Assembly: GCA_036845805.1 (NCBI GenBank)
Contig: DAIUDD010000001.1
Coordinates: 628 to 64,627, forward strand
Direction of reading: 5' to 3'
DNA from: Patescibacteria group bacterium
GTDB taxonomy: Bacteria; Patescibacteriota; Patescibacteriia; UBA2196
DNA length: 64,000 nt
Shown here: positions 64 through 58,107 of the stretch, in pieces
How the letters are laid out: each line of letters begins with the position of its first letter
How positions within the stretch are numbered: the stretch's first letter is position 1
Program-made: the position numbers and the translations under genes
Notes under the pieces: model-generated
Seen by the model: the letters and a program-made list of their open reading frames with translations, nothing else
What the model was told of the DNA's origin: nothing
Database searches by the model: none

Positions 64-140
64 TGGTGCGCATGGGAGGACTTGAACCTCCGACCCCGTC
101 ATTATCAGTGACGTGCTCTAACCAACTGAGCTACATGCGC
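64..140 (-). tRNA. tRNA-Ile (anticodon GAT), CCA encoded
   Basis: The reverse complement folds as a cloverleaf: acceptor GCGCATG/CATGCGC, anticodon loop CTGATAA, T-loop TTCAAGT, terminal ACCA. Confidence 0.85.
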
Positions 141-179: not shown

Positions 180-249
180 GTCATCCTGAGCGATTAGCAA
201 AGGAATTCTTTTAAATTGTATCGAGATTCTTCGCTTCGCTCAGAATGAC
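180..249. repeat. Empty hairpin element (GTCATCC...GAATGAC family), MITE-like
   Basis: Left arm gtcatcctgagcgattagcaaaggaattctt pairs imperfectly with right arm agattcttcgcttcgctcagaatgac around a 13-nt AT loop. The termini are the same type as the GIY-YIG element that starts 30 bp downstream. Confidence 0.7.
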
Positions 250-279: not shown

Positions 280-658
280 GTCATCCTGAACGATTAGTGA
301 AGGATCTCTCCTTTATACCTCATCAAATAAATCTTTAAAAGTTGGATTAAAATCTTTTATTAATTTTAATTTCTTTTTTCTTACCCAACCCTTAATTTCT
401 TTTTCTCTCCCAATAGCATCAGCCGGATTATTATAAGTTTCATAGTAGACTAATTTTTTGATATTGTATCTGGCGGTAAAACCTTTGATAATCTTATATT
501 TATGTTGCCAAACTCTAGCCTTTAAATTATTGGTTATACCAGTATAAAGGGTTAAAGAAATATTGGTCATGATATAGACAGAATAGAATTTATTGTGATG
601 TTTTTTATACTTAAAACTATACTTCTGCATAGAGATTCTTCGTTCCGCTCAGAATGAC
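280..658. mobile_element. Palindromic element carrying a GIY-YIG nuclease gene between ~30-bp terminal inverted repeats
   Basis: Left TIR gtcatcctgaacgattagtgaaggatctctcc (280-311) is the inverted complement of right TIR agagattcttcgttccgctcagaatgac (631-658). The ORF stop lies 1 nt inside the left TIR and the ORF start lies immediately next to the right TIR. Confidence 0.6.
313..630 (-). CDS. GIY-YIG nuclease family protein (UPF0213-like)
   Basis: 105 aa. The N-terminus YSVYIMTN...LYTGITNNLKARVWQHK is the GIY-YIG motif. Confidence 0.8.
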   Translation of the reverse strand: MQKYSFKYKKHHNKFYSVYIMTNISLTLYTGITNNLKARVWQHKYKIIKGFTARYNIKKLVYYETYNNPADAIGREKEIKGWVRKKKLKLIKDFNPTFKDLFDEV

Positions 659-23321: not shown

Positions 23322-23337
23322 GGGTTTTTTGTCCCCT

Positions 23338-23432
23338 CCTTTTCAAGGAGGGGCGGACTCTGATGAAATCAGAGCCGGGGAGGTTAATATATTCGCCGAT
23401 AGGCGTTTTGTCATCCCGCGTCCACGGGATCC
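23338..23432. repeat. Cluster of three hairpins: cccctccttttcaaggagggg, ctctgatgaaatcagag, gtcatcccgcgtccacgggatcc (GTCAT family)
   Basis: Perfect stems, located between the glyS stop and the true start of the next gene. The ORF-track N-terminal extension (23363) reads through them. Confidence 0.6.
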
Positions 23433-27470: not shown

Positions 27471-28958
27471 ATGTTAAATAAATTCTATCTTACCACCACC
27501 CTGCCATATGTCAATAGCGAACCGCATATTGGTTTTGCTTTGGAAATTATTCAAGCCGATACCATTGCCCGTTGGCAGCGTTTGAATGACAATGAAGTAT
27601 TTTTTAATACTGGCACTGATGAGCATGGTTTAAAAATTTATCGAAAAGCCATGGAAGAGGGCAAAGAACCGCAAGAATATTGTGACGAATATGCGGCCAA
27701 ATTTGATAATTTAAAAAACGCGCTGAATTTAAGTTATAATAATTTTATCCGCACGACCGACAAGCATCATCTAAAAGCAGCGCAAGAATTTTGGCAACGT
27801 TGTGAAAAAAACGGCGACATTTACAAAAAAAACTATCAGGTTAAATATTGTGTCGGCTGCGAATTGGAAAAAACCGAATCGGAATTAGAAAATGACAAAT
27901 GTCCGATTCATCCTAATTTAGAATTAGAATTAATTAATGAAGAAAATTATTTTTTTCGTTTTAGTAAATATCAACAGCCGCTTTTAGATTTATATCATAA
28001 AAATCCAGAATTTGTGGTGCCGGCGCATCGGCTAACCGAAATTAAAAATTTTGTCGCCGCTGGTTTGGAAGATTTTAGCATCTCCCGCCTTAAAGAAAAA
28101 ATGCCTTGGGGTATTAGCGTGCCGGGCGATGAAAATCATGTGATGTATGTTTGGTTTGATGCTCTGATCAATTATATTTCCTGTTTGGGTTGGCCCGAAG
28201 ATGAAAAAAAATTTCAAGAATTTTGGCCAGGGTGTCAGGTTGCGGGCAAAGACAATTTGCGCCAGCAATCGGCCATGTGGCAAGCCATGTTAATGTCTGC
28301 TGGCTTACCGCCATCCAAGCAAATATTTATTCATGGTTTTATTACGGCCAATGGTGAAAAAATGAGTAAATCTCTGGGCAATGTGATTAATCCATTTGAA
28401 TTAGTTAAAAAATTTGGCACTGATGCCGTGCGTTATTATTTGCTGGCTAAAATTTCTCCTTTTGAAGATGGCGATTATACTGAAGAAAAATTTAAAGAAG
28501 CTTATATTGCCGATCTTTGTAATGGTCTTGGCAATCTGGTTTCGCGTGTTTCCAATTTAATTGAAAAGAATGATATTCAAATAGAATGTCATCCTGAGCG
28601 ATTAGCGAAGGATCCCGCATCTTTTCTGTCATCCTCGCGAACGCGAGGATCCCATGGTTTTAAAGATGATCAACTGTCTAAATCATTCTCTGAAAAATTA
28701 GAAAACTATAAATTTAACGAAGCCTTGGAAATTCTTTGGAATAAACTGCGCGCCTGCGATGAAACAGTCACTAAAACTGAACCATGGAAAATTAAAGATC
28801 AAGATAGATTAAAAGAAATTTTAGAACCAATTGCAGAAGATATTTTAAATGTGGCAATTTTACTCCAACCTTTTATGCCCGAAACCGCGGAAAAAATTAA
28901 GGCTACTTTTACCGCAGAAAAAATTAAAAAAAGCGAGCCCTTATTTCCCAGAATATAA
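27471..28958 (+). CDS. metG: Methionine--tRNA ligase, carrying a 66-bp in-frame repeat-element insertion
   Basis: Class I HIGH region (PYVNSEPHIGFA), KMSKS, and zinc knuckles CxxC. The insertion CHPERLAKDPASFLSSSRTRGSHG is encoded by element 28588-28653. Confidence 0.9.
   Translation: MLNKFYLTTTLPYVNSEPHIGFALEIIQADTIARWQRLNDNEVFFNTGTDEHGLKIYRKAMEEGKEPQEYCDEYAAKFDNLKNALNLSYNNFIRTTDKHHLKAAQEFWQRCEKNGDIYKKNYQVKYCVGCELEKTESELENDKCPIHPNLELELINEENYFFRFSKYQQPLLDLYHKNPEFVVPAHRLTEIKNFVAAGLEDFSISRLKEKMPWGISVPGDENHVMYVWFDALINYISCLGWPEDEKKFQEFWPGCQVAGKDNLRQQSAMWQAMLMSAGLPPSKQIFIHGFITANGEKMSKSLGNVINPFELVKKFGTDAVRYYLLAKISPFEDGDYTEEKFKEAYIADLCNGLGNLVSRVSNLIEKNDIQIECHPERLAKDPASFLSSSRTRGSHGFKDDQLSKSFSEKLENYKFNEALEILWNKLRACDETVTKTEPWKIKDQDRLKEILEPIAEDILNVAILLQPFMPETAEKIKATFTAEKIKKSEPLFPRI
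28588..28653 (+). repeat. GTCAT-family double hairpin element inside metG, read in-frame
   Basis: gtcatcctgagcgattagcgaaggatccc + gtcatcctcgcgaacgcgaggatccc. The first unit nearly matches the left arm of the element at 180-210. Confidence 0.7.
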
Positions 28959-29033
28959 TATATTTTGTCATTCCCGACCCGATCGGGAATCAAGAAATTT
29001 TAAAATTTAAAATTTTAAATTTAAAATTATTCT

Positions 29034-29562: not shown

Positions 29563-29642
29563 GTCATGCTGAACTTGATTCAGCATCCCTTTACTTTGAG
29601 ATAATTTTTGATATTTAGATCCCGAAACAAGTTCGGGATGAC
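29563..29642 (+). repeat. GTCAT-family element (two hairpins; termini gtcat...atgac) immediately upstream of tatD
   Basis: gtcatgctgaacttgattcagcatccc ... agatcccgaaacaagttcgggatgac. Confidence 0.65.
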
Positions 29643-29658
29643 AGAACAGGGTTTTGTT

Positions 29659-30624
29659 ATGACCATAATCGACTCCCACTGCCATCTTAATTTTCCCGAA
29701 TATAAAGATGATCAGGAAAATATCATTGCCGATTGCCTAAAAAAAGGGATCGGCCTTATTAACATTGGCACCAGTTTAAAAACTTCGACCGAAGTTTTTA
29801 ATTTAGCCAATCAATACCCAAATAAACCAATCTACGCCGCGATTGGTCTTTATCCCTCACATTGTTCTGATACTGATTATGACGCGCACGAGCAAGCCTT
29901 AAAAGATCCGGACATTTTTTTTAACCCAGCTTTATATCAGAAATTAATTGATGCTGATATAAATAAAAAAATTGTGGCGGTGGGTGAAATTGGTTTGGAA
30001 TATAGTTATGTGCCCTCTGGCCGTGATCTTGCAGAAATAAAAAGTTTGCAAAGACAGGGTTTTATTGATCAATTAAATTTTGCCGGGAAAAATAATCTGC
30101 CAGTAATTCTCCATGCCCGCGGGTCAAAGGAAAAACCAGATGACGCATATGAAGATATGTTAGAAATTTTAACCGCCTTTTTGTCATCCTCGCGAAAGCG
30201 AGGATCCCATGGTTTAGGTGATGAAACACAAGATTCCCGCTGGAGTTTACCCCGTACCGCGATACGGGGCGGGAATGACAGTAACCTAAAAGGCGTTCTT
30301 CATTGTTTTAGTTCAACAATCGAAATCGCTCAAAAATTTCTTGATTTAGGTTTTTATCTTGGTTTTACCGGTATTATTACTTTTAAAAATAAATCTGTTG
30401 ACAATTTGCGGAAAGTTGTTAAACTAATTTCCTTGGAGAAAATTTTAGTCGAAACCGATGCCCCGTATTTAACCCCCGAACCACATCGCGGGGAAATTAA
30501 TAAGCCGCAAAATGTTACTCTAGTGGCGCAAAAAATTGCTGAGCTTAAAAACATTTCTTATGGGGAAGTGTGTAAAATAACCACAAACAATGTTAAAAAT
30601 TTGTTTTTATGTTTTAATGTTTAA
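29659..30624 (+). CDS. tatD: TatD family metal-dependent hydrolase, with a 97-bp in-frame element insertion
   Basis: IDSHCHLNF, VGEIGLEY, ILHARGS, VLHCFSST and ILVETDAPYL. The ~31-aa insertion LSSSRKRGSHG...RGGNDSNLK is encoded by 30183-30279. The start should be the MTIID Met, not the ORF-track 29608. Confidence 0.85.
   Translation: MTIIDSHCHLNFPEYKDDQENIIADCLKKGIGLINIGTSLKTSTEVFNLANQYPNKPIYAAIGLYPSHCSDTDYDAHEQALKDPDIFFNPALYQKLIDADINKKIVAVGEIGLEYSYVPSGRDLAEIKSLQRQGFIDQLNFAGKNNLPVILHARGSKEKPDDAYEDMLEILTAFLSSSRKRGSHGLGDETQDSRWSLPRTAIRGGNDSNLKGVLHCFSSTIEIAQKFLDLGFYLGFTGIITFKNKSVDNLRKVVKLISLEKILVETDAPYLTPEPHRGEINKPQNVTLVAQKIAELKNISYGEVCKITTNNVKNLFLCFNV
30183..30279 (+). repeat. GTCAT-family composite element inside tatD, in-frame
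   Basis: gtcatcctcgcgaaagcgaggatccc...aagattcccgc...ccccgtaccgcgatacgggg cgggaatgac has the same architecture as 56513-56593. Confidence 0.7.
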
Positions 30625-42693: not shown

Positions 42694-42756
42694 TACAAAT
42701 ATACTAATATACTAATATTTTTAAATTTGTATATTCGTAATTTTTTGTCATTCCAG

Positions 42757-42796
42757 CGAGCTTTAAGTTGCCAGTGGCAAGTTAAAGCTGGAATCC
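42757..42796. repeat. GTCAT-family long hairpin
   Basis: gtcattccagcgagctttaagttgccagtggcaagttaaagctggaatcc forms a ~20-bp stem with one mismatch. Confidence 0.6.
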
Positions 42797-53068: not shown

Positions 53069-54358
53069 ATGTGTTATAATATTTTTATTATGTACCCGGA
53101 ATTATCAGTCAATCCACAATCCGAATCAAAATTTAAAAAACGCGTCCCTCTTTGGCTGGCGGTTTTTTTGGTCATTATTGCTTTAACTGCCGGTGTTTTT
53201 TGGGGCGAGGGTATTGCTGATAAAAAAAATAGTGACAATCTGTCGGCCAAAACTTATGGCACGGTTGTAAGCAAAGATGGTCCTTTGCCGGAATATTTAA
53301 CCAAAGATGTTAATTTTAATTTATTTTGGGAAGTGTGGCAGAAGATTCAAAATTTATATATTGATCGGCCGGTTGGCGAAACTAAAATGCTCTATGGCGC
53401 GATGAGTGGATTAGTTGGTTCTTTGGGTGATCCCTATTCTATTTTTTTAGAACCAGTCACCACCAAAAAATTTAGTGATGATTTAAAAGGTAAGTTCGAA
53501 GGCATTGGCGCCGAAATTGGCTTGCGCGATAAGCTTATTACCATTGTTTCTCCACTGCCGGAATCGCCAGCCGAGCGCGCGGGTCTAAAAGCCGGCGATA
53601 AAATCGTCGAAATTAATGGCGAATCAACCGAAAAAATGACCTTGGATGATGCCGTCAATAAAATTCGTGGCGACAAAGGCACTATAGTTAAGTTAAAAAT
53701 TTTCCGTGAAAAAGATAATAATTTTCATGAGTACGACATTACCCGAGATGAAATTAAAATTGTCAGTGTCCGTTTAGAAATAAAAGATAATAATATTGCC
53801 TATCTGCAAGTGACTAATTTTAACGATGATACCGATGTTCGTTTTAAAAAAGCCGTGGAAGAAATTATTTTAAAAAATCCCAAAGGTATAATTTTAGATA
53901 TGCGCAATAATCCCGGTGGTTATTTGGAGCGCGCGGTTGACGTTGCTTCTTATTGGTTAACCAGTGATCAATCTGTGGTTTTGGAAGAGTTTGCCTCTGG
54001 CGAACGGCAAACTTATTTTTCTAAAGGCGTGGGGCAATTAAAAAATTATCCGACCGTTGTTTTGGTTAACGGCGGCTCGGCTTCCGCTTCCGAAATTGTA
54101 GCCGGCGCTCTGCAAGATGCGGGGTTAGCCAAACTGGTGGGAGAAAAGACTTTTGGCAAGGGTTCAGTCCAAACCCTAGAAAATTTATCTGACGGTTCAT
54201 CAGTTAAATTAACCATTGCCCGCTGGTTAACGCCTCTGGGGCGTCAAATTGATGTGGTCGGCATTGAACCAGATGAAAAAATTGAATTAACCGAAGAAGA
54301 TTTTAATCAAGGCAAAGACCCGCAGTTAGATAAAGCGCTGGAAATGCTTTCTCGTTGA
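53069..54358 (+). CDS. ctpA: S41 family C-terminal processing peptidase (CtpA/Prc)
   Basis: PDZ (GLKAGDKIVEING), catalytic GGSASASEIVAGALQD and K in NPGGYLE. Confidence 0.85.
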   Translation: MCYNIFIMYPELSVNPQSESKFKKRVPLWLAVFLVIIALTAGVFWGEGIADKKNSDNLSAKTYGTVVSKDGPLPEYLTKDVNFNLFWEVWQKIQNLYIDRPVGETKMLYGAMSGLVGSLGDPYSIFLEPVTTKKFSDDLKGKFEGIGAEIGLRDKLITIVSPLPESPAERAGLKAGDKIVEINGESTEKMTLDDAVNKIRGDKGTIVKLKIFREKDNNFHEYDITRDEIKIVSVRLEIKDNNIAYLQVTNFNDDTDVRFKKAVEEIILKNPKGIILDMRNNPGGYLERAVDVASYWLTSDQSVVLEEFASGERQTYFSKGVGQLKNYPTVVLVNGGSASASEIVAGALQDAGLAKLVGEKTFGKGSVQTLENLSDGSSVKLTIARWLTPLGRQIDVVGIEPDEKIELTEEDFNQGKDPQLDKALEMLSR

Positions 54359-54359
54359 T

Positions 54360-54445
54360 GTCATTTTGAGAAGCAAAGCGACGAGGAATCCCAATATAAA
54401 TTTAAAAGAGATCCTTCGCCCCGCATTTGCGGTGTTCAGGATGAC
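54360..54445 (+). repeat. GTCAT-family MITE with both arms related to the GIY-YIG element TIRs
   Basis: gtcattttgagaagcaaagcgacgaggaatccc...AT loop...agagatccttcgccccgcatttgcggtgttcaggatgac. Compare with 280-311 and 631-658. Confidence 0.7.
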
Positions 54446-54460
54446 AACCGTTTAGTTTTT

Positions 54461-54907
54461 ATGAAAGTCATTTTACTAAAAAATATTGATAAACTTGGTC
54501 AAAAAAATGACATCAAAAATGTTTCTGATGGTTATGCTTTGAATTATTTATTGCCATTAAAATTAGCCCTGCCGGTTAACGCCGCTAACTTAAAAAATAT
54601 TAATGATCAAGCGCATAAAATTTTGACCACCAAAAATAAACTTGATAATCAATGGGAAAAAATAAGCAAAATTTTAACTAACAAAAAATTTGTAATTAAA
54701 AAAACTACCTCTGATCGGGGTAAATTATTCGCCGCGGTTAATCTTGATGATGTGCTGTTGACTATTAAAAAATCAACCGGGCTGATTATTGAAAAATCTC
54801 AAGCCAGTTTAGAAGGCGCGCACATTAAAGAAACCGGCTCTCATAATGCGATTTTAGTTATTCCGCATCATAAAATTAATTTAACCGTTCAAGTGGAAGC
54901 TGAGTAA
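54461..54907 (+). CDS. rplI: 50S ribosomal protein L9
   Basis: MKVILLKNIDKLGQKNDIKNVSDGYALNYLLP. Confidence 0.85.
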   Translation: MKVILLKNIDKLGQKNDIKNVSDGYALNYLLPLKLALPVNAANLKNINDQAHKILTTKNKLDNQWEKISKILTNKKFVIKKTTSDRGKLFAAVNLDDVLLTIKKSTGLIIEKSQASLEGAHIKETGSHNAILVIPHHKINLTVQVEAE

Positions 54908-56500: not shown

Positions 56501-56512
56501 TTAATTTTTTGT

Positions 56513-56593
56513 GTCATCCCCGCGTAAGCGGGGATCTCGTGAACCAAGAGTTTGTAACAAAGATTCTGGGATTCCCGCTTTCGCGGGAATGAC
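56513..56593 (+). repeat. GTCAT-family composite element (termini gtcatcc...gggaatgac)
   Basis: gtcatccccgcgtaagcggggatc...aagattc...gggattcccgctttcgcgggaatgac. The ORF-track reads it as an N-terminal extension of nfu. Confidence 0.7.
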
Positions 56594-56603
56594 AATAATA
56601 TTT

Positions 56604-56843
56604 ATGTCTACACAAAATATTCAAGAAAAAATACAACAAGAATTAGAATTAATTCGTCCGCATTTACAAATGGATGGTGGCGATGTTGAATTGGTGGAAT
56701 TTAATGAACAAAAAGGCGTTTTAAAATTGCGTCTTCAAGGCGCTTGCGTTGGTTGTCCTATGAGCGCCATGACTTTACAAGAAGGCATTGGCCGCGCTAT
56801 TAAAGAAAAAATACCTGAAGTAAAAGAAGTGATGGCAGTGTAA
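56604..56843 (+). CDS. NifU-like C-terminal domain protein (Nfu)
   Basis: LELIRPHLQMDGGDVELVEF...LQGACVGCPMSAMTLQ. Confidence 0.8.
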   Translation: MSTQNIQEKIQQELELIRPHLQMDGGDVELVEFNEQKGVLKLRLQGACVGCPMSAMTLQEGIGRAIKEKIPEVKEVMAV

Positions 56844-56925: not shown

Positions 56926-58107
56926 ATGAAAATCTATTTTGATCATGCGGCTACTACCCCGGTTGATAAACAGGTATTAGAAGCAATGCAACCATATTTT
57001 AGTGAAAAATTTGGCAATGCCTCTTCGGTGCATTCTTTTGGCCAGGAAGCTGAACAAGCCGTGAGTGAAGCCAGAAAAAGGGTGGCGGATTTTTTAAATT
57101 GTAATTCCGAAGAAATAATTTTTACTTCTGGCGCCACTGAAGCAGACAATTTGGCAATAATTGGCATTTGTCATCCTGAACTTTTTTCAGGATCTCTTAG
57201 TAAAGAGACAAAACCACACATTATCACCACGGCTTTTGAGCACCCAGCAGTTTTGGAAACCTGCAAATATTTAGAAAAGAAAGGCGTGGAAGTGAGTTAT
57301 GTTAAACCAGACAGCGAAGGCATTATTCATGTTGAAGATATTGAAAAAGAAATTAAAAATAATACCATTTTAATTTCTGTTATGTATGTTAATAATGAAA
57401 TTGGCACGGTGCAACCGATAAAAAACATTGGCGATTTGTTAAAAAAAATAAACGCCGAAAGAACTAATAAAATATATTTTCATACCGATGCAGTGCAAGC
57501 CACACTTTACCAAGATATGAATGTAGAAAATTTAGGTGTAGATTTGATGTCAATTTCTGGTCATAAAATTTATGGGCCAAAAGGCATCGGTGTTTTATAT
57601 GTTAAAAAAAATACACCCCTAAAAAATATACAACATGGCGGTCATCATGAATTTGGCAAAAGAGCGGGCACTTTAAATACTCCGGGTATTGTGGGTATGG
57701 GCCAAGCCATTGAATTAATAAAAGATCATGATCAAGAAAAAATAAAAAACTTACGCGATTATTTGTGGAGCGAATTACAAAAAAATATTTCCGATTTAAA
57801 ATTAAACGGCAGTTTGGAAAAAAGAACTCCAGGCAATTTGAATTTTTCCGTTAATGGTGTGGAAGGCGAGGCACTTTTATTGGGGCTTGATTTGGCAGGT
57901 GTTGCCATTTCTACTGGTTCGGCTTGTTCATCGGGTTCCTTAGAGCCATCGCATGTTTTAATGGCTATTGGCTTAAGCCATGAATTGGCCCATGGCAGTT
58001 TACGAATTACTTTGGGTTATGAAAATACCAAAGAAGAATGCGATCAATTTGTGAAAACTCTGAAGCCTTTGGTGGAAAAATTTAGAGCTATGGCGCCGAA
58101 GGGATGA
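56926..58107 (+). CDS. iscS: Cysteine desulfurase (IscS/NifS family)
   Basis: MKIYFDHAATTP, PLP Lys in SISGHKIYGPKGIG, and catalytic loop SACSSGS. Confidence 0.9.
   Translation: MKIYFDHAATTPVDKQVLEAMQPYFSEKFGNASSVHSFGQEAEQAVSEARKRVADFLNCNSEEIIFTSGATEADNLAIIGICHPELFSGSLSKETKPHIITTAFEHPAVLETCKYLEKKGVEVSYVKPDSEGIIHVEDIEKEIKNNTILISVMYVNNEIGTVQPIKNIGDLLKKINAERTNKIYFHTDAVQATLYQDMNVENLGVDLMSISGHKIYGPKGIGVLYVKKNTPLKNIQHGGHHEFGKRAGTLNTPGIVGMGQAIELIKDHDQEKIKNLRDYLWSELQKNISDLKLNGSLEKRTPGNLNFSVNGVEGEALLLGLDLAGVAISTGSACSSGSLEPSHVLMAIGLSHELAHGSLRITLGYENTKEECDQFVKTLKPLVEKFRAMAPKG

What the first reader, a model, noticed from the sequence alone, without database searches (positions are those of the whole stretch)
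54360..54445. Intergenic MITE copy (ctpA-rplI spacer) looks like a deletion derivative of the GIY-YIG element
The 86-bp element retains a left arm gtcattttgagaagcaaagcgacgaggaatccc and a right arm agagatccttcg...ttcaggatgac. These match the left TIR (280-311) and right TIR (631-658) of the GIY-YIG element, joined by a short AT loop. That is exactly what an internally deleted non-autonomous copy would look like.
Basis: seen in the sequence. Interest (0 to 1): 0.55.

Follow-up and report, generated by a model that had tools for sequence, protein, structure and literature searches.

The report
Hairpin-repeat pair targeted by Ssn nuclease
The 86-bp spacer element is an inverted pair of short DNA hairpin repeats of the kind recognised by the small GIY-YIG single-strand nuclease Ssn encoded at the start of the window; this system was described in Neisseria in 2025 and is seen here in a candidate-phyla (Kuenenbacteria-like) bacterium, so it is a new example of a known thing and not a new class of transposon.

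Summary
The element at 54360-54445 is real. It sits between an S41/CtpA-like protease gene and rplI. It is not best read as two TIRs. It is an inverted doublet of a ~25-50 nt hairpin unit, (T)GTC / AT-YC-Y stem ... R-GR-AT / C-YC. About 18 copies of this unit lie in the window, and one copy flanks each side of the 105-aa GIY-YIG gene (313-630, minus strand).

The unit matches the Neisseria NTS / "Ssn-related motif". The protein is a clear homolog of Neisseria SsnA (41% identity, E 9e-25, catalytic Tyr/Tyr/Glu kept). SsnA is a site-specific ssDNA nuclease described in Nat Commun 2025 (PMC11893778).

A covariance model built without the two arms finds the right arm (E 1.4e-4). It does not find the decayed left arm on its own (E 9).

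The element is a flipped, diverged copy of the 70-bp doublet at 180-249.

The spacer is empty in four more distant relatives. One relative holds a different doublet there. A 96%-identical relative keeps only the first 10 nt.

The link to the GIY-YIG gene is supported. Origin by internal deletion is not shown: there is no target duplication and no gene remnant.

Units also lie in frame inside the MetRS, TatD and IscS genes.

The parts
54360..54392 (+). D1, left hairpin unit of the doublet (GTCATTTTGAG...GAGGAATCCC); decayed, with a base stem ATTTT/GGAAT that needs two G.T pairs
   Evidence: Sequence read. CM R1 gives 7.8 bits, E 9.1. Nearest units are A2 and B2. The DNA fold is weak, z -0.24.
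54393..54407 (.). AT-rich spacer between the two units
   Evidence: The central segment resembles the spacer of doublet 180-249 in the flipped orientation; 1 of 5000 shuffles reach the score.
54408..54445 (-). D2, right hairpin unit (GTCATCCTGAAC-[CCGCAAATGCGG]-GCGAAGGATCTC on the minus strand), with an extra inner hairpin
   Evidence: CM R1 gives 22.5 bits, E 1.4e-4, with this unit left out of the model. 27/31 identical to B1. DNA fold -6.5 kcal/mol.
313..630 (-). ssnA-like gene: single-domain GIY-YIG nuclease, 105 aa (85 aa from the internal Met)
   Evidence: PF01541, E 7e-12. BLASTP against the N. gonorrhoeae ssnA-locus product gives 41% identity, E 9e-25, with the Tyr/Tyr/Glu equivalents kept. 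It is the only copy in the window.
280..308 (+). B1, the unit flanking the 3' end of ssnA
   Evidence: E 8.6e-9; this unit was part of the model's training set.
633..658 (-). B2, the unit flanking the 5' end of ssnA; it ends 9 nt from tRNA-Val
180..249 (.). Doublet A (A1 at 180-208 +, A2 at 224-249 -), 30 bp from the ssnA element. Its arms are 81% and 90% identical to B1 and B2.
56513..56593 (.). Doublet F (F1 at 56513-56538 +, F2 at 56569-56593 -). F2 contains GTCATTCCCGCGAAAGCGGGAATC, which matches the core (positions 2-25) of the published 28-nt NTS consensus CGTCATTCCCGCGMAVGCGGGAATCYRG. F1 is also present at the same site in the close relative L026.
   Evidence: (z -4.6 and -6.5).
29563..29642 (.). 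Doublet T1/T2, upstream of tatD
30183..30279 (.). Doublet T3/T4, inserted in frame inside tatD (peptide LSSSRKRGSHG...RGGNDSN)
28588..28653 (+). Two direct units, M1 and M2, in frame inside metG (peptide CHPERLAKDPASFLSSSRTRGSHG)
   Evidence: the alignment to solved MetRS structures is less clear-cut.
57170..57196 (+). Single 27-nt unit in frame inside the cysteine desulfurase gene (peptide CHPELFSGS)
   Evidence: a 7-aa gap in PDB 9wep at exactly this place.
28967..28991 (+). Single intergenic unit, 9 nt after the metG stop
23410..23432 (+). Single intergenic unit
42747..42795 (+). Long-stem unit variant. The same inner sequence (AGTTGCCAGTGGCAA) occurs in a unit of Kuenenbacteria locus L002.
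   Evidence: z -6.7. The CM scores it only at E 1.7.

Best explanation
The 86-bp element is an inverted doublet of Ssn-related motifs (SRM, the generalised form of the Neisseria NTS/dRS3 hairpin repeat). Each unit is a strand-specific single-stranded-DNA hairpin with an invariant GTC on the 5' side and a C on the 3' side of the stem. The cognate enzyme is the small single-domain GIY-YIG nuclease encoded at 313-630, a member of the Ssn family. That gene itself sits between two such units.

By analogy with the characterised Neisseria and Wolbachia enzymes, the protein would bind the folded hairpin only when the DNA is single-stranded (incoming transforming DNA, replication or repair intermediates) and nick a few nucleotides 5' of GTC. 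In a doublet, each strand presents one correctly oriented unit, so either strand can be cut, and the cuts fall just outside the element. Here the right unit looks competent and the left unit looks decayed.

The doublet is one copy of a small composite family (ATCC-type unit + AT spacer + ATTC-type unit). The 70-bp element at 180-249 is a better-preserved copy in the opposite orientation. The family has spread or been reshuffled within this Kuenenbacteria-like lineage, including into protein-coding genes.

Shown here: repeat-family membership, hairpin covariation, homology of the protein to SsnA, the association of gene and repeats, and variable occupancy of the site. Inferred: binding and cleavage by this protein, the effect on ssDNA recombination, and the means of spread.
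For: About 18 units in 64 kb share GTC-AT..AT-C. A simple hairpin scan finds 21 against 3.3 +/- 1.8 in shuffles, and the 10-mer motif occurs 9 times against 0.42 expected.

On 17 units, the stem is paired in 91% of cells against 70% in shuffles (0 of 500 reach it). There are 33 double-sided changes against 12.5 expected, and sliding the register drops pairing below 47%.

The model built from those units detects D2 at E 1.4e-4. The same model detects 12 bona fide NTS repeats around N. gonorrhoeae ssnA (E 1e-7 to 4e-3), and units flanking the closest homologous genes in L034, L035 and L036.

Unit F2 contains GTCATTCCCGCGAAAGCGGGAATC, the core of the published NTS consensus CGTCATTCCCGCGMAVGCGGGAATCYRG. 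The invariant positions here, GTC before the stem and C after it, are the ones the paper found critical for cleavage and binding.

The protein is PF01541 only and 105 aa long. It is 41% identical to the product of the NTS-flanked N. gonorrhoeae locus, E 9e-25. Adding 3 to that ORF's numbering reproduces the paper's Y6, Y17, E64 and its 94-aa length, and all three residues are conserved in the window protein.

The site is variable. It is empty in L001/L019, L021 and L022. L002/L020 holds a different doublet. The 96%-identical relative L026 keeps only GTCATTTTGA (P = 4.5e-5 in shuffles of that spacer).
Against: The published degenerate SRM pattern matches only one unit in the window (56512-56539). 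It matches neither arm of this element nor the two units flanking the gene.

The 'class II' units (GTCATYCTGAGCG..GCGAAGRATC), which include the gene flanks and both arms, fold weakly with nearest-neighbour DNA parameters, with z between -1.7 and +0.8.

D1 alone is not significant.

I compared the protein with a N. gonorrhoeae locus, not with the N. meningitidis reference CAX49033.1, and that gonorrhoeae record looks frameshifted at its first codons.

I could not run the CDD cd10448 assignment. No biochemical data exist for this protein or for any CPR homolog.
Confidence: 0.8

Rival explanations
1. One reading: the GIY-YIG gene with its two flanks is an autonomous IS-like transposon. The 86-bp element is a MITE made from it by internal deletion and moved in trans by the GIY-YIG protein.
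For: The doublet has the same outward GTCAT geometry and the same two arm types as the gene-flanking pair. Doublet A beside the gene has arms 81% and 90% identical to the gene flanks. Doublets A and D share their spacer. Occupancy of the site varies among relatives. The authors of PMC11893778 themselves note that NTS-ssnA-NTS looks like an IS.
Against: There is no target-site duplication at any doublet (sequences). The spacers show no similarity to the gene ends. Units also occur singly and in direct tandem, which deletion does not explain. D's arms carry insertions that the gene flanks lack, and D1 is decayed. Against the close relative L026, the difference is not a clean insertion: about 90 nt of AT-rich spacer and the ctpA stop codon also differ. 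Only nicking of ssDNA has been shown for Ssn, not strand transfer. The cuts predicted for a doublet fall on opposite strands.
Confidence: 0.2
2. The doublet is mainly a host regulatory structure: a transcript-level hairpin ending or stabilising the ctpA message, or insulating rplI. Its repeat nature would be incidental. This does not exclude the main explanation.
For: It begins 1 nt after the ctpA stop codon. As RNA the whole doublet folds into one long hairpin, -28.8 kcal/mol, z -2.4. REP elements in enterobacteria act in this way (my own knowledge of the field).
Against: No terminator-like site was found and no T-tract follows the stem. There is no Rfam match. Close and distant relatives do without the element at this site. 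The same units sit inside coding regions, where a terminator would be harmful.
Confidence: 0.1
3. Chance palindrome in an intergenic region with no relation to the GIY-YIG locus.
For: The left arm alone is not distinguishable from chance.
Against: The right arm scores E 1.4e-4 with a model that never saw it. The 10-mer signature is about 20-fold enriched. The spacer is shared with doublet A.
Confidence: 0.01

Closest known systems
Ssn nuclease / NTS-SRM hairpin repeat system (Chenal et al., Nat Commun 2025, PMC11893778)
   Same: A small single-domain GIY-YIG protein homologous to SsnA, with the catalytic residues kept. The gene is flanked on both sides by hairpin repeats of the form GTC-stem-loop-stem-C. 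Many further copies lie in the genome. One unit contains the core of the NTS consensus. A model trained on the window's units finds the Neisseria NTS repeats.
   Different: The host is a CPR/Patescibacteria (Kuenenbacteria-like) bacterium with 37% GC; I found no mention of this group in the paper's main text. Most units fall outside the published degenerate SRM pattern because of longer or mismatched stems and a 'TGAGCG...GCGAAG' class. About 5 of 18 units lie in frame inside genes, against 2% reported for N. meningitidis. No biochemistry exists for this protein.
Neisseria intergenic mosaic elements (NIME: RS segment bounded by inverted dRS3 repeats)
   Same: Two inverted copies of the dRS3/NTS-type hairpin enclose a short spacer in intergenic DNA. 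The N. gonorrhoeae ssnA locus shows such a pair at L033 981-1092.
   Different: The spacer here is only about 15 nt and AT-rich, not a 50-150 bp RS unit. The arm sequences have diverged. The NIME description rests on my own knowledge of the Neisseria literature.
REP / BIME / REPIN with RAYT (TnpA-REP) transposases
   Same: Short strand-specific ssDNA hairpins occur singly and as inverted doublets. The cognate gene is itself flanked by the repeats. Two unit types alternate in doublets, as Y and Z REPs do in BIMEs.
   Different: The associated protein is a GIY-YIG nuclease, not an HUH/Y1 transposase. The conserved 5' signature is GTC, not GTAG.
Rickettsia palindromic elements (RPE)
   Same: Palindromic repeats inserted in frame into housekeeping genes and tolerated as extra peptide loops. 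This applies to the copies in metG, tatD and iscS, not to the 86-bp element itself.
   Different: I did not test sequence relatedness. RPEs are about 100-150 bp and have no demonstrated cognate nuclease.
Classical MITEs (for example Neisseria Correia elements)
   Same: Short, non-coding, inverted termini, multicopy, variable presence.
   Different: No target-site duplication. The termini are independent hairpin units, not transposase-binding TIRs. No transposase is known.

Membership tests
Ssn nuclease family (GIY-YIG, CDD cd10448) | Single-domain GIY-YIG protein of about 94 aa (under 150 aa) | tested here: met
   105 aa (85 aa from the internal Met). PF01541 is the only Pfam hit, covering residues 16-88.
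Ssn nuclease family (GIY-YIG, CDD cd10448) | BLASTP E < 1e-10 with at least 75% coverage against Neisseria SsnA (the paper's criterion) | tested here: met
   37/90 identical, E 9e-25 pairwise, against the NTS-flanked N. gonorrhoeae locus L033 1201-1473. tblastn E is 3e-15 in a 7.3-Gb database. Caveat: this is the gonorrhoeae ortholog, not the N. meningitidis reference CAX49033.1.
Ssn nuclease family (GIY-YIG, CDD cd10448) | Catalytic Tyr, Tyr and Glu (Y6, Y17, E64 in N. meningitidis) | tested here: met
   Y19, Y29 and E76 align with them.
Ssn nuclease family (GIY-YIG, CDD cd10448) | Gene flanked by the hairpin motif on both sides within 500 bp | tested here: met
   Units at 280-308 (+) and 633-658 (-), plus doublet 180-249. 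The published degenerate pattern does not match these two units; my own covariance model does, but they were part of its training set.
Ssn nuclease family (GIY-YIG, CDD cd10448) | Top CDD hit is cd10448 | not testable with these tools
   No CDD library is available here.
Ssn nuclease family (GIY-YIG, CDD cd10448) | Cuts only single-stranded DNA, one strand of the motif, a few nt upstream | not testable with these tools
   Needs purified protein and oligonucleotides.
Ssn-related motif (SRM / NTS) repeat | GTC, then a palindromic stem, then C, with a fixed orientation | tested here: met
   D2 has all of it. D1 has GTC and the 3' C but a weakened stem.
Ssn-related motif (SRM / NTS) repeat | Match to the published pattern HGTCWYN(0-2)YYVSBRHN(0-5)WNVSBRGN(0-2)RNCYNB | tested here: not met
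   Only 56512-56539 matches in the whole window. Neither arm of the element matches.
Ssn-related motif (SRM / NTS) repeat | Hairpin maintained across copies | tested here: met
   5 of 8 stem pairs show double-sided changes. 91% of cells are paired against 70% in shuffles, 0 of 500.
Ssn-related motif (SRM / NTS) repeat | Same family as authentic Neisseria NTS | tested here: met
   The model built from the window and L002 units finds 12 NTS in the N. gonorrhoeae locus, E 1e-7 to 4e-3.
MITE derived by internal deletion of an autonomous element | Termini match those of the autonomous element over their length | tested here: inconclusive
   Only the terminal 11-12 nt and the inner 10-11 nt match. 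The best pairing is crosswise, and the left arm is not significant alone.
MITE derived by internal deletion of an autonomous element | Target-site duplication | tested here: not met
   The flanks are ...GTTGAT|GTCAT and ATGAC|AACCGT. No doublet has a direct repeat at its ends.
MITE derived by internal deletion of an autonomous element | Internal remnant of the parent | tested here: not met
   The spacers of doublets A and D compared with both interior ends of the gene element score no better than shuffles.
MITE derived by internal deletion of an autonomous element | The parent encodes a transposase | not testable with these tools
   Ssn is a nicking ssDNA nuclease, and mobility is only hypothesised in PMC11893778.
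REP/REPIN-RAYT | Associated gene is a Y1 (HUH) RAYT transposase | tested here: not met
   The associated gene is GIY-YIG.
Intrinsic terminator | GC-rich stem followed directly by a T-tract | tested here: not met
   No site found in 54200-54600.

The most novel reading that the evidence does not exclude
In this Kuenenbacteria-like lineage the Ssn hairpin units and their two-unit composites are, or recently were, mobile non-autonomous partners of the GIY-YIG nuclease, a REPIN/RAYT-like relationship built on a different nuclease fold. They insert even in frame into essential genes (metG, tatD, iscS), where they persist as extra peptide loops. That would make Ssn the engine of a previously unrecognised kind of ssDNA-based mobile element in bacteria with minimal genomes.
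Probability: 0.3. Interest if true: 0.7.

Novelty: new member of a known kind. Interest (0 to 1): 0.35.

Why it matters
The finding ties an anonymous intergenic palindrome to a defined enzyme-substrate system.

It extends the Ssn/NTS system to candidate-phyla bacteria, a group reported to take up external DNA (my own knowledge).

It shows that the published search pattern misses most units in an AT-rich genome.

The variable occupancy of the ctpA-rplI spacer and of one loop of TatD gives concrete natural test cases. They bear on the question the 2025 paper left open: whether these repeats are mobile and whether Ssn moves them.

Tried and rejected
The left arm failed and the right arm passed, so I moved to a family-level test.
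- The published SRM pattern gave only one hit in the window, so I built my own covariance model.
- Literature searches for GIY-YIG with REPIN or MITE, and for the motif sequences themselves, returned only unrelated papers or primer matches. The search for GIY-YIG with 'extragenic palindrom' found the key paper. No supplementary files were held for it, and no follow-up papers turned up.
- No solved structure is close to the protein, and there is no NCBIfam hit.
- The terminator/promoter scan and the Rfam search were negative.
- I looked for similarity between the doublet spacers and the ends of the gene as a trace of deletion and found none.
- I looked for a second GIY-YIG gene in the window and found none.
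- I checked whether the hairpins at 23330-23385 belong to another repeat family; they do not.
- Searches for prior reports of in-frame hairpin insertions in Patescibacteria, or of a link between RPEs and GIY-YIG, returned nothing.

Full report
**What is at the coordinates**

Window 54360-54445 reads GTCATTTTGAGAAGCAAAGCGACGAGGAATCCC-AATATAAATTTAAA-AGAGATCCTTCGCCCCGCATTTGCGGTGTTCAGGATGAC. It starts 1 nt after the stop of a 429-aa ORF with Peptidase_S41 and PDZ domains (CtpA-like). It ends 15 nt before a 148-aa ORF with both ribosomal protein L9 domains.

At the start of the window a 105-aa ORF on the minus strand (313..630) hits only PF01541, the GIY-YIG domain, at E 7e-12. It lies between tRNA-Ile (64-140) and tRNA-Val (668-744). 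It is bracketed by GTCATCCTGAACGATTAGTGAAGGATCTC (280-308, +) and GTCATTCTGAGCGGAACGAAGAATCT (633-658, -).

**Is the resemblance more than chance?**

At family level, yes. GTCATYYTGA occurs 9 times in the window against 0.42 expected.

Arm by arm, the answer is mixed:
- Left arm vs 280-311 aligns only over GTCAT, and 1067 of 2000 shuffles do as well.
- Right arm vs 631-658 gives 18 nt with 3 mismatches, reached by 2 of 2000 shuffles.
- The best matches are crosswise. In global comparisons of all units, the right arm is closest to the left flank of the gene (27/31). The left arm is closest to the 249(-)/658(-) type (25/30 and 23/30).

**The 'TIRs' are copies of a free-standing hairpin unit**

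A search for GTCA followed by a stem that closes on ...AT-C found units at these starts: 180+, 249-, 280+, 658-, 23410+, 28588+, 28628+, 28967+, 29563+, 29642-, 30183+, 30279-, 42747+, 54445-, 56513+, 56593- and 57170+. The scan gave 21 hits against 3.3 +/- 1.8 in dinucleotide shuffles.

The unit is (T)GTC, a stem beginning AT-Y-C-Y, a variable upper stem and loop, the stem's return R-G-R-AT, then C-YC.

On an alignment of 17 units (14 from the window and 3 from a Kuenenbacteria locus, excluding both arms of the finding):
- 91% of stem cells pair, against 70% in column shuffles (0 of 500 reach it).
- 5 of 8 pairs show double-sided changes.
- Sliding the partner by one column halves the pairing.

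Many units are strong ssDNA hairpins, with z from -3.4 to -6.7. The 'TGAGCG...GCGAAG' class, which flanks the gene and makes up the finding, folds weakly with standard parameters. From my own knowledge, GCGAAGC-type mini-hairpins and tandem G.A pairs are underestimated by those parameters. That is inference.

A covariance model from the 17 units, run over the whole window with filters off, gave:
- right arm (54406-54448, -): 22.5 bits, E 1.4e-4;
- left arm (54357-54394, +): only 7.8 bits, E 9.1.

The left arm's base stem would need two G.T pairs (ATTTT/GGAAT), as if two C-to-T changes had hit an ATTCC/GGAAT stem. It is a decayed unit, credible only because it sits in the canonical position and orientation beside the right arm.

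**What the system is**

A literature search led to Chenal et al., Nat Commun 2025 (PMC11893778). The paper reports the following:
- The Neisseria dRS3 repeat is part of a longer oriented hairpin, NTS, with consensus CGTCATTCCCGCGMAVGCGGGAATCYRG.
- NTS-like 'Ssn-related motifs' flank the gene of a 94-aa single-domain GIY-YIG protein, SsnA (CDD cd10448), in many phyla.
- SsnA binds the hairpin only as single-stranded DNA, on one strand only, and cuts a few nucleotides upstream.
- The three nucleotides before the palindrome govern cleavage, and the C after it governs binding.
- In N. meningitidis the enzyme lowers the integration of NTS-bearing transforming DNA.

The window unit at 56570-56593 (-) is GTCATTCCCGCGAAAGCGGGAATC, which matches the core of that consensus. 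The invariant positions of the window's units are exactly GTC and the 3' C.

The plasmid collection contains two N. gonorrhoeae chromosomes filed as plasmids. tblastn of the window protein hits one place in each. That locus is surrounded by NTS repeats. Adding 3 to its ORF numbering reproduces the paper's Y6, Y17, E64 and its 94-aa length. It aligns to the window protein at 37/90 identities, E 9e-25, with all three residues conserved.

The model trained on the window's units finds 12 NTS repeats in that Neisseria locus. It also finds units tightly flanking the closest homologous genes in metagenomic contigs L034/L035 (67% identity) and L036.

Caldithrix abyssi homologs are followed by arrays of GTCATTTCGACGA... 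units that end in an inverted doublet.

The protein is therefore an Ssn-family member and the repeats are SRMs. One caveat: the paper's own degenerate pattern matches only one unit in this window.

**The doublet as a unit**

All five doublets in the window, and two in Kuenenbacteria locus L002, have outward-facing GTCAT ends. Each combines an ATCC-type unit with an ATTC-type unit.

The 70-bp doublet at 180-249 lies 30 bp from the gene element. Its arms are 81% and 90% identical to the gene's two flanks. Its centre, TCTTTTAAATTGTATCGAG, matches the reverse complement of the finding's centre, CTCTTTTAAATTTATATTGGG; 1 of 5000 shuffles reach that score. Part of this match is the conserved unit tails.

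The finding is thus a diverged, flipped copy of the same composite element. Neither spacer resembles the ends of the gene, and no doublet has a target-site duplication. Origin by internal deletion is possible but leaves no trace here.

**Relatives**

The organism is a CPR bacterium near Candidatus Kuenenbacteria. The best CtpA matches are 69% (L001, unnamed MAG) and 67% (L002, Kuenenbacteria CG10). Synteny ctpA-rplI-rpmA is conserved.

State of the spacer in each relative:
- L001/L019: AT-rich and empty.
- L021: about 22 nt and empty.
- L022: empty.
- L002/L020: holds a different, longer doublet of the same family.
- L026, a close relative (96% amino-acid identity on the CtpA C-terminus, same gene order): a 129-nt AT-rich spacer with no doublet. 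That spacer does contain GTCATTTTGA, the first 10 nt of the element, on the same strand. The chance of this in shuffles of that spacer is 4.5e-5.

The simplest reading is that the doublet predates the split of the window organism from L026's organism. It was then almost wholly deleted in L026, while the window lineage lost about 90 nt of AT-rich spacer and changed the ctpA stop codon. That ordering is inference.

By contrast, the doublet at 56513-56593 is present at the orthologous site in L026, whose contig breaks inside it.

**Other readings**

No terminator-like or promoter-like site was found and there is no Rfam match. As RNA the doublet would form one long hairpin, -28.8 kcal/mol, z -2.4. 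A secondary effect on the ctpA transcript cannot be excluded.

**How it most likely works**

Shown here:
- family membership of the repeats;
- maintenance of the hairpin across copies;
- homology of the protein to SsnA, with catalytic residues kept;
- the gene-repeat association here and in homologs;
- variable occupancy of the site.

Inferred from PMC11893778: when either strand becomes single-stranded, the unit on that strand folds. The nuclease binds the stem and its 3' C and nicks just 5' of GTC, that is, just outside the doublet. The right unit is probably a good substrate and the left unit a poor one.

The likely consequences are restriction or trimming of incoming or exposed ssDNA, and local recombination and indels. 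These are extrapolated from Neisseria, and the role of DNA uptake in CPR bacteria is from my own knowledge.

Whether Ssn also spreads the repeats is unknown.

**Side observation**

Units lie in frame inside genes:
- metG: two direct units of 66 nt in all, peptide CHPERLAKDPASFLSSSRTRGSHG;
- tatD: a full doublet of about 99 nt, peptide LSSSRKRGSHG...RGGNDSN;
- the cysteine desulfurase gene: one 27-nt unit, peptide CHPELFSGS.

Solved homologs have gaps there for IscS (7 aa) and TatD (about 37 aa). MetRS is less clear.

Among TatD orthologs at 51-64% identity, the same loop is empty in four and filled with different unit-derived peptides in seven.

The paper reports only 2% of NTS inside genes in N. 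meningitidis. I found no report of this behaviour in CPR bacteria in the searchable library.

**Verdict**

The element is a new member (new phylum, divergent unit class) of a system published in 2025. Interest is modest for the element itself. It is higher for the open question of mobility and for the in-frame insertions.

Noticed in passing
window 28588-28653 (metG), 30183-30279 (tatD), 57170-57196 (cysteine desulfurase gene): Hairpin units lie in frame inside three housekeeping genes and add 9 to about 33 residues. In TatD orthologs the same loop is empty in four proteins and filled with different unit-derived peptides in seven.
   Followed up: partly
window 180-249: This 70-bp doublet lies 30 bp from the GIY-YIG element. 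Its arms are 81% and 90% identical to the gene's flanks. It is a better-preserved 'solo' copy than the element in the finding and shares that element's spacer in flipped orientation.
   Followed up: yes
window 64-140, 668-744: The GIY-YIG gene and its flanking units sit between tRNA-Ile(GAT) and tRNA-Val(GAC). The right unit ends 9 nt from tRNA-Val.
   Followed up: no
L026 491-500: The close relative lacks the doublet but keeps GTCATTTTGA, the first 10 nt of the element, on the same strand (P = 4.5e-5 in shuffles). This suggests a deletion of the remaining 76 nt rather than a never-occupied site.
   Followed up: partly
L026 2580-2591: The contig of the close relative ends inside the unit orthologous to 56513. 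Assemblies of these genomes seem to break at the repeats.
   Followed up: no
L018 720-1380 and 1800-2080 (Caldithrix abyssi CP018099): Two tandem GIY-YIG genes are each followed by a direct array of about 37-40 nt GTCATTTCGACGA... units lacking the 3' half of the stem. Each array ends in a complete inverted doublet.
   Followed up: no
whole window: The published degenerate SRM pattern matches only 1 of about 18 units here (56512-56539), so it probably undercounts the repeats in AT-rich or CPR genomes.
   Followed up: yes
window 56511-56843 and 29608-30624; proteins P0011-P0013: Mechanical ORFs and database gene calls run into the repeats and gain spurious N-terminal extensions such as MSSPRKRGSREP... 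. The real starts are probably 56606 (nifU-like) and 29659 (tatD).
   Followed up: partly
window 42747-42795 and 30232-30279; L002 5269-5389: Long-stem unit variants share inner sequences between the window and the Kuenenbacteria genome: AGTTGCCAGTGGCAA, and GTCATTCCCGCC...CTCCAGCGGGAATC. Unit subfamilies are therefore shared across species that are only about 67% identical in CtpA.
   Followed up: no
L033 (NZ_CP119142.1) and NZ_CP119140.1: Two 2.17-Mb N. gonorrhoeae chromosomes are filed as plasmids in the plasmid collection. In the one I read (L033), the ssnA reading frame is out of register with its ATG at the first codons.
   Followed up: no
alignment A4, columns 104-142 (TatD orthologs P0132, P0134, P0135, P0141): Other TatD orthologs carry further short insertions at two more sites (for example NVETRFIASP and EIHPVKSSKAGQPKAEF). 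They may derive from other hairpin repeat types.
   Followed up: no
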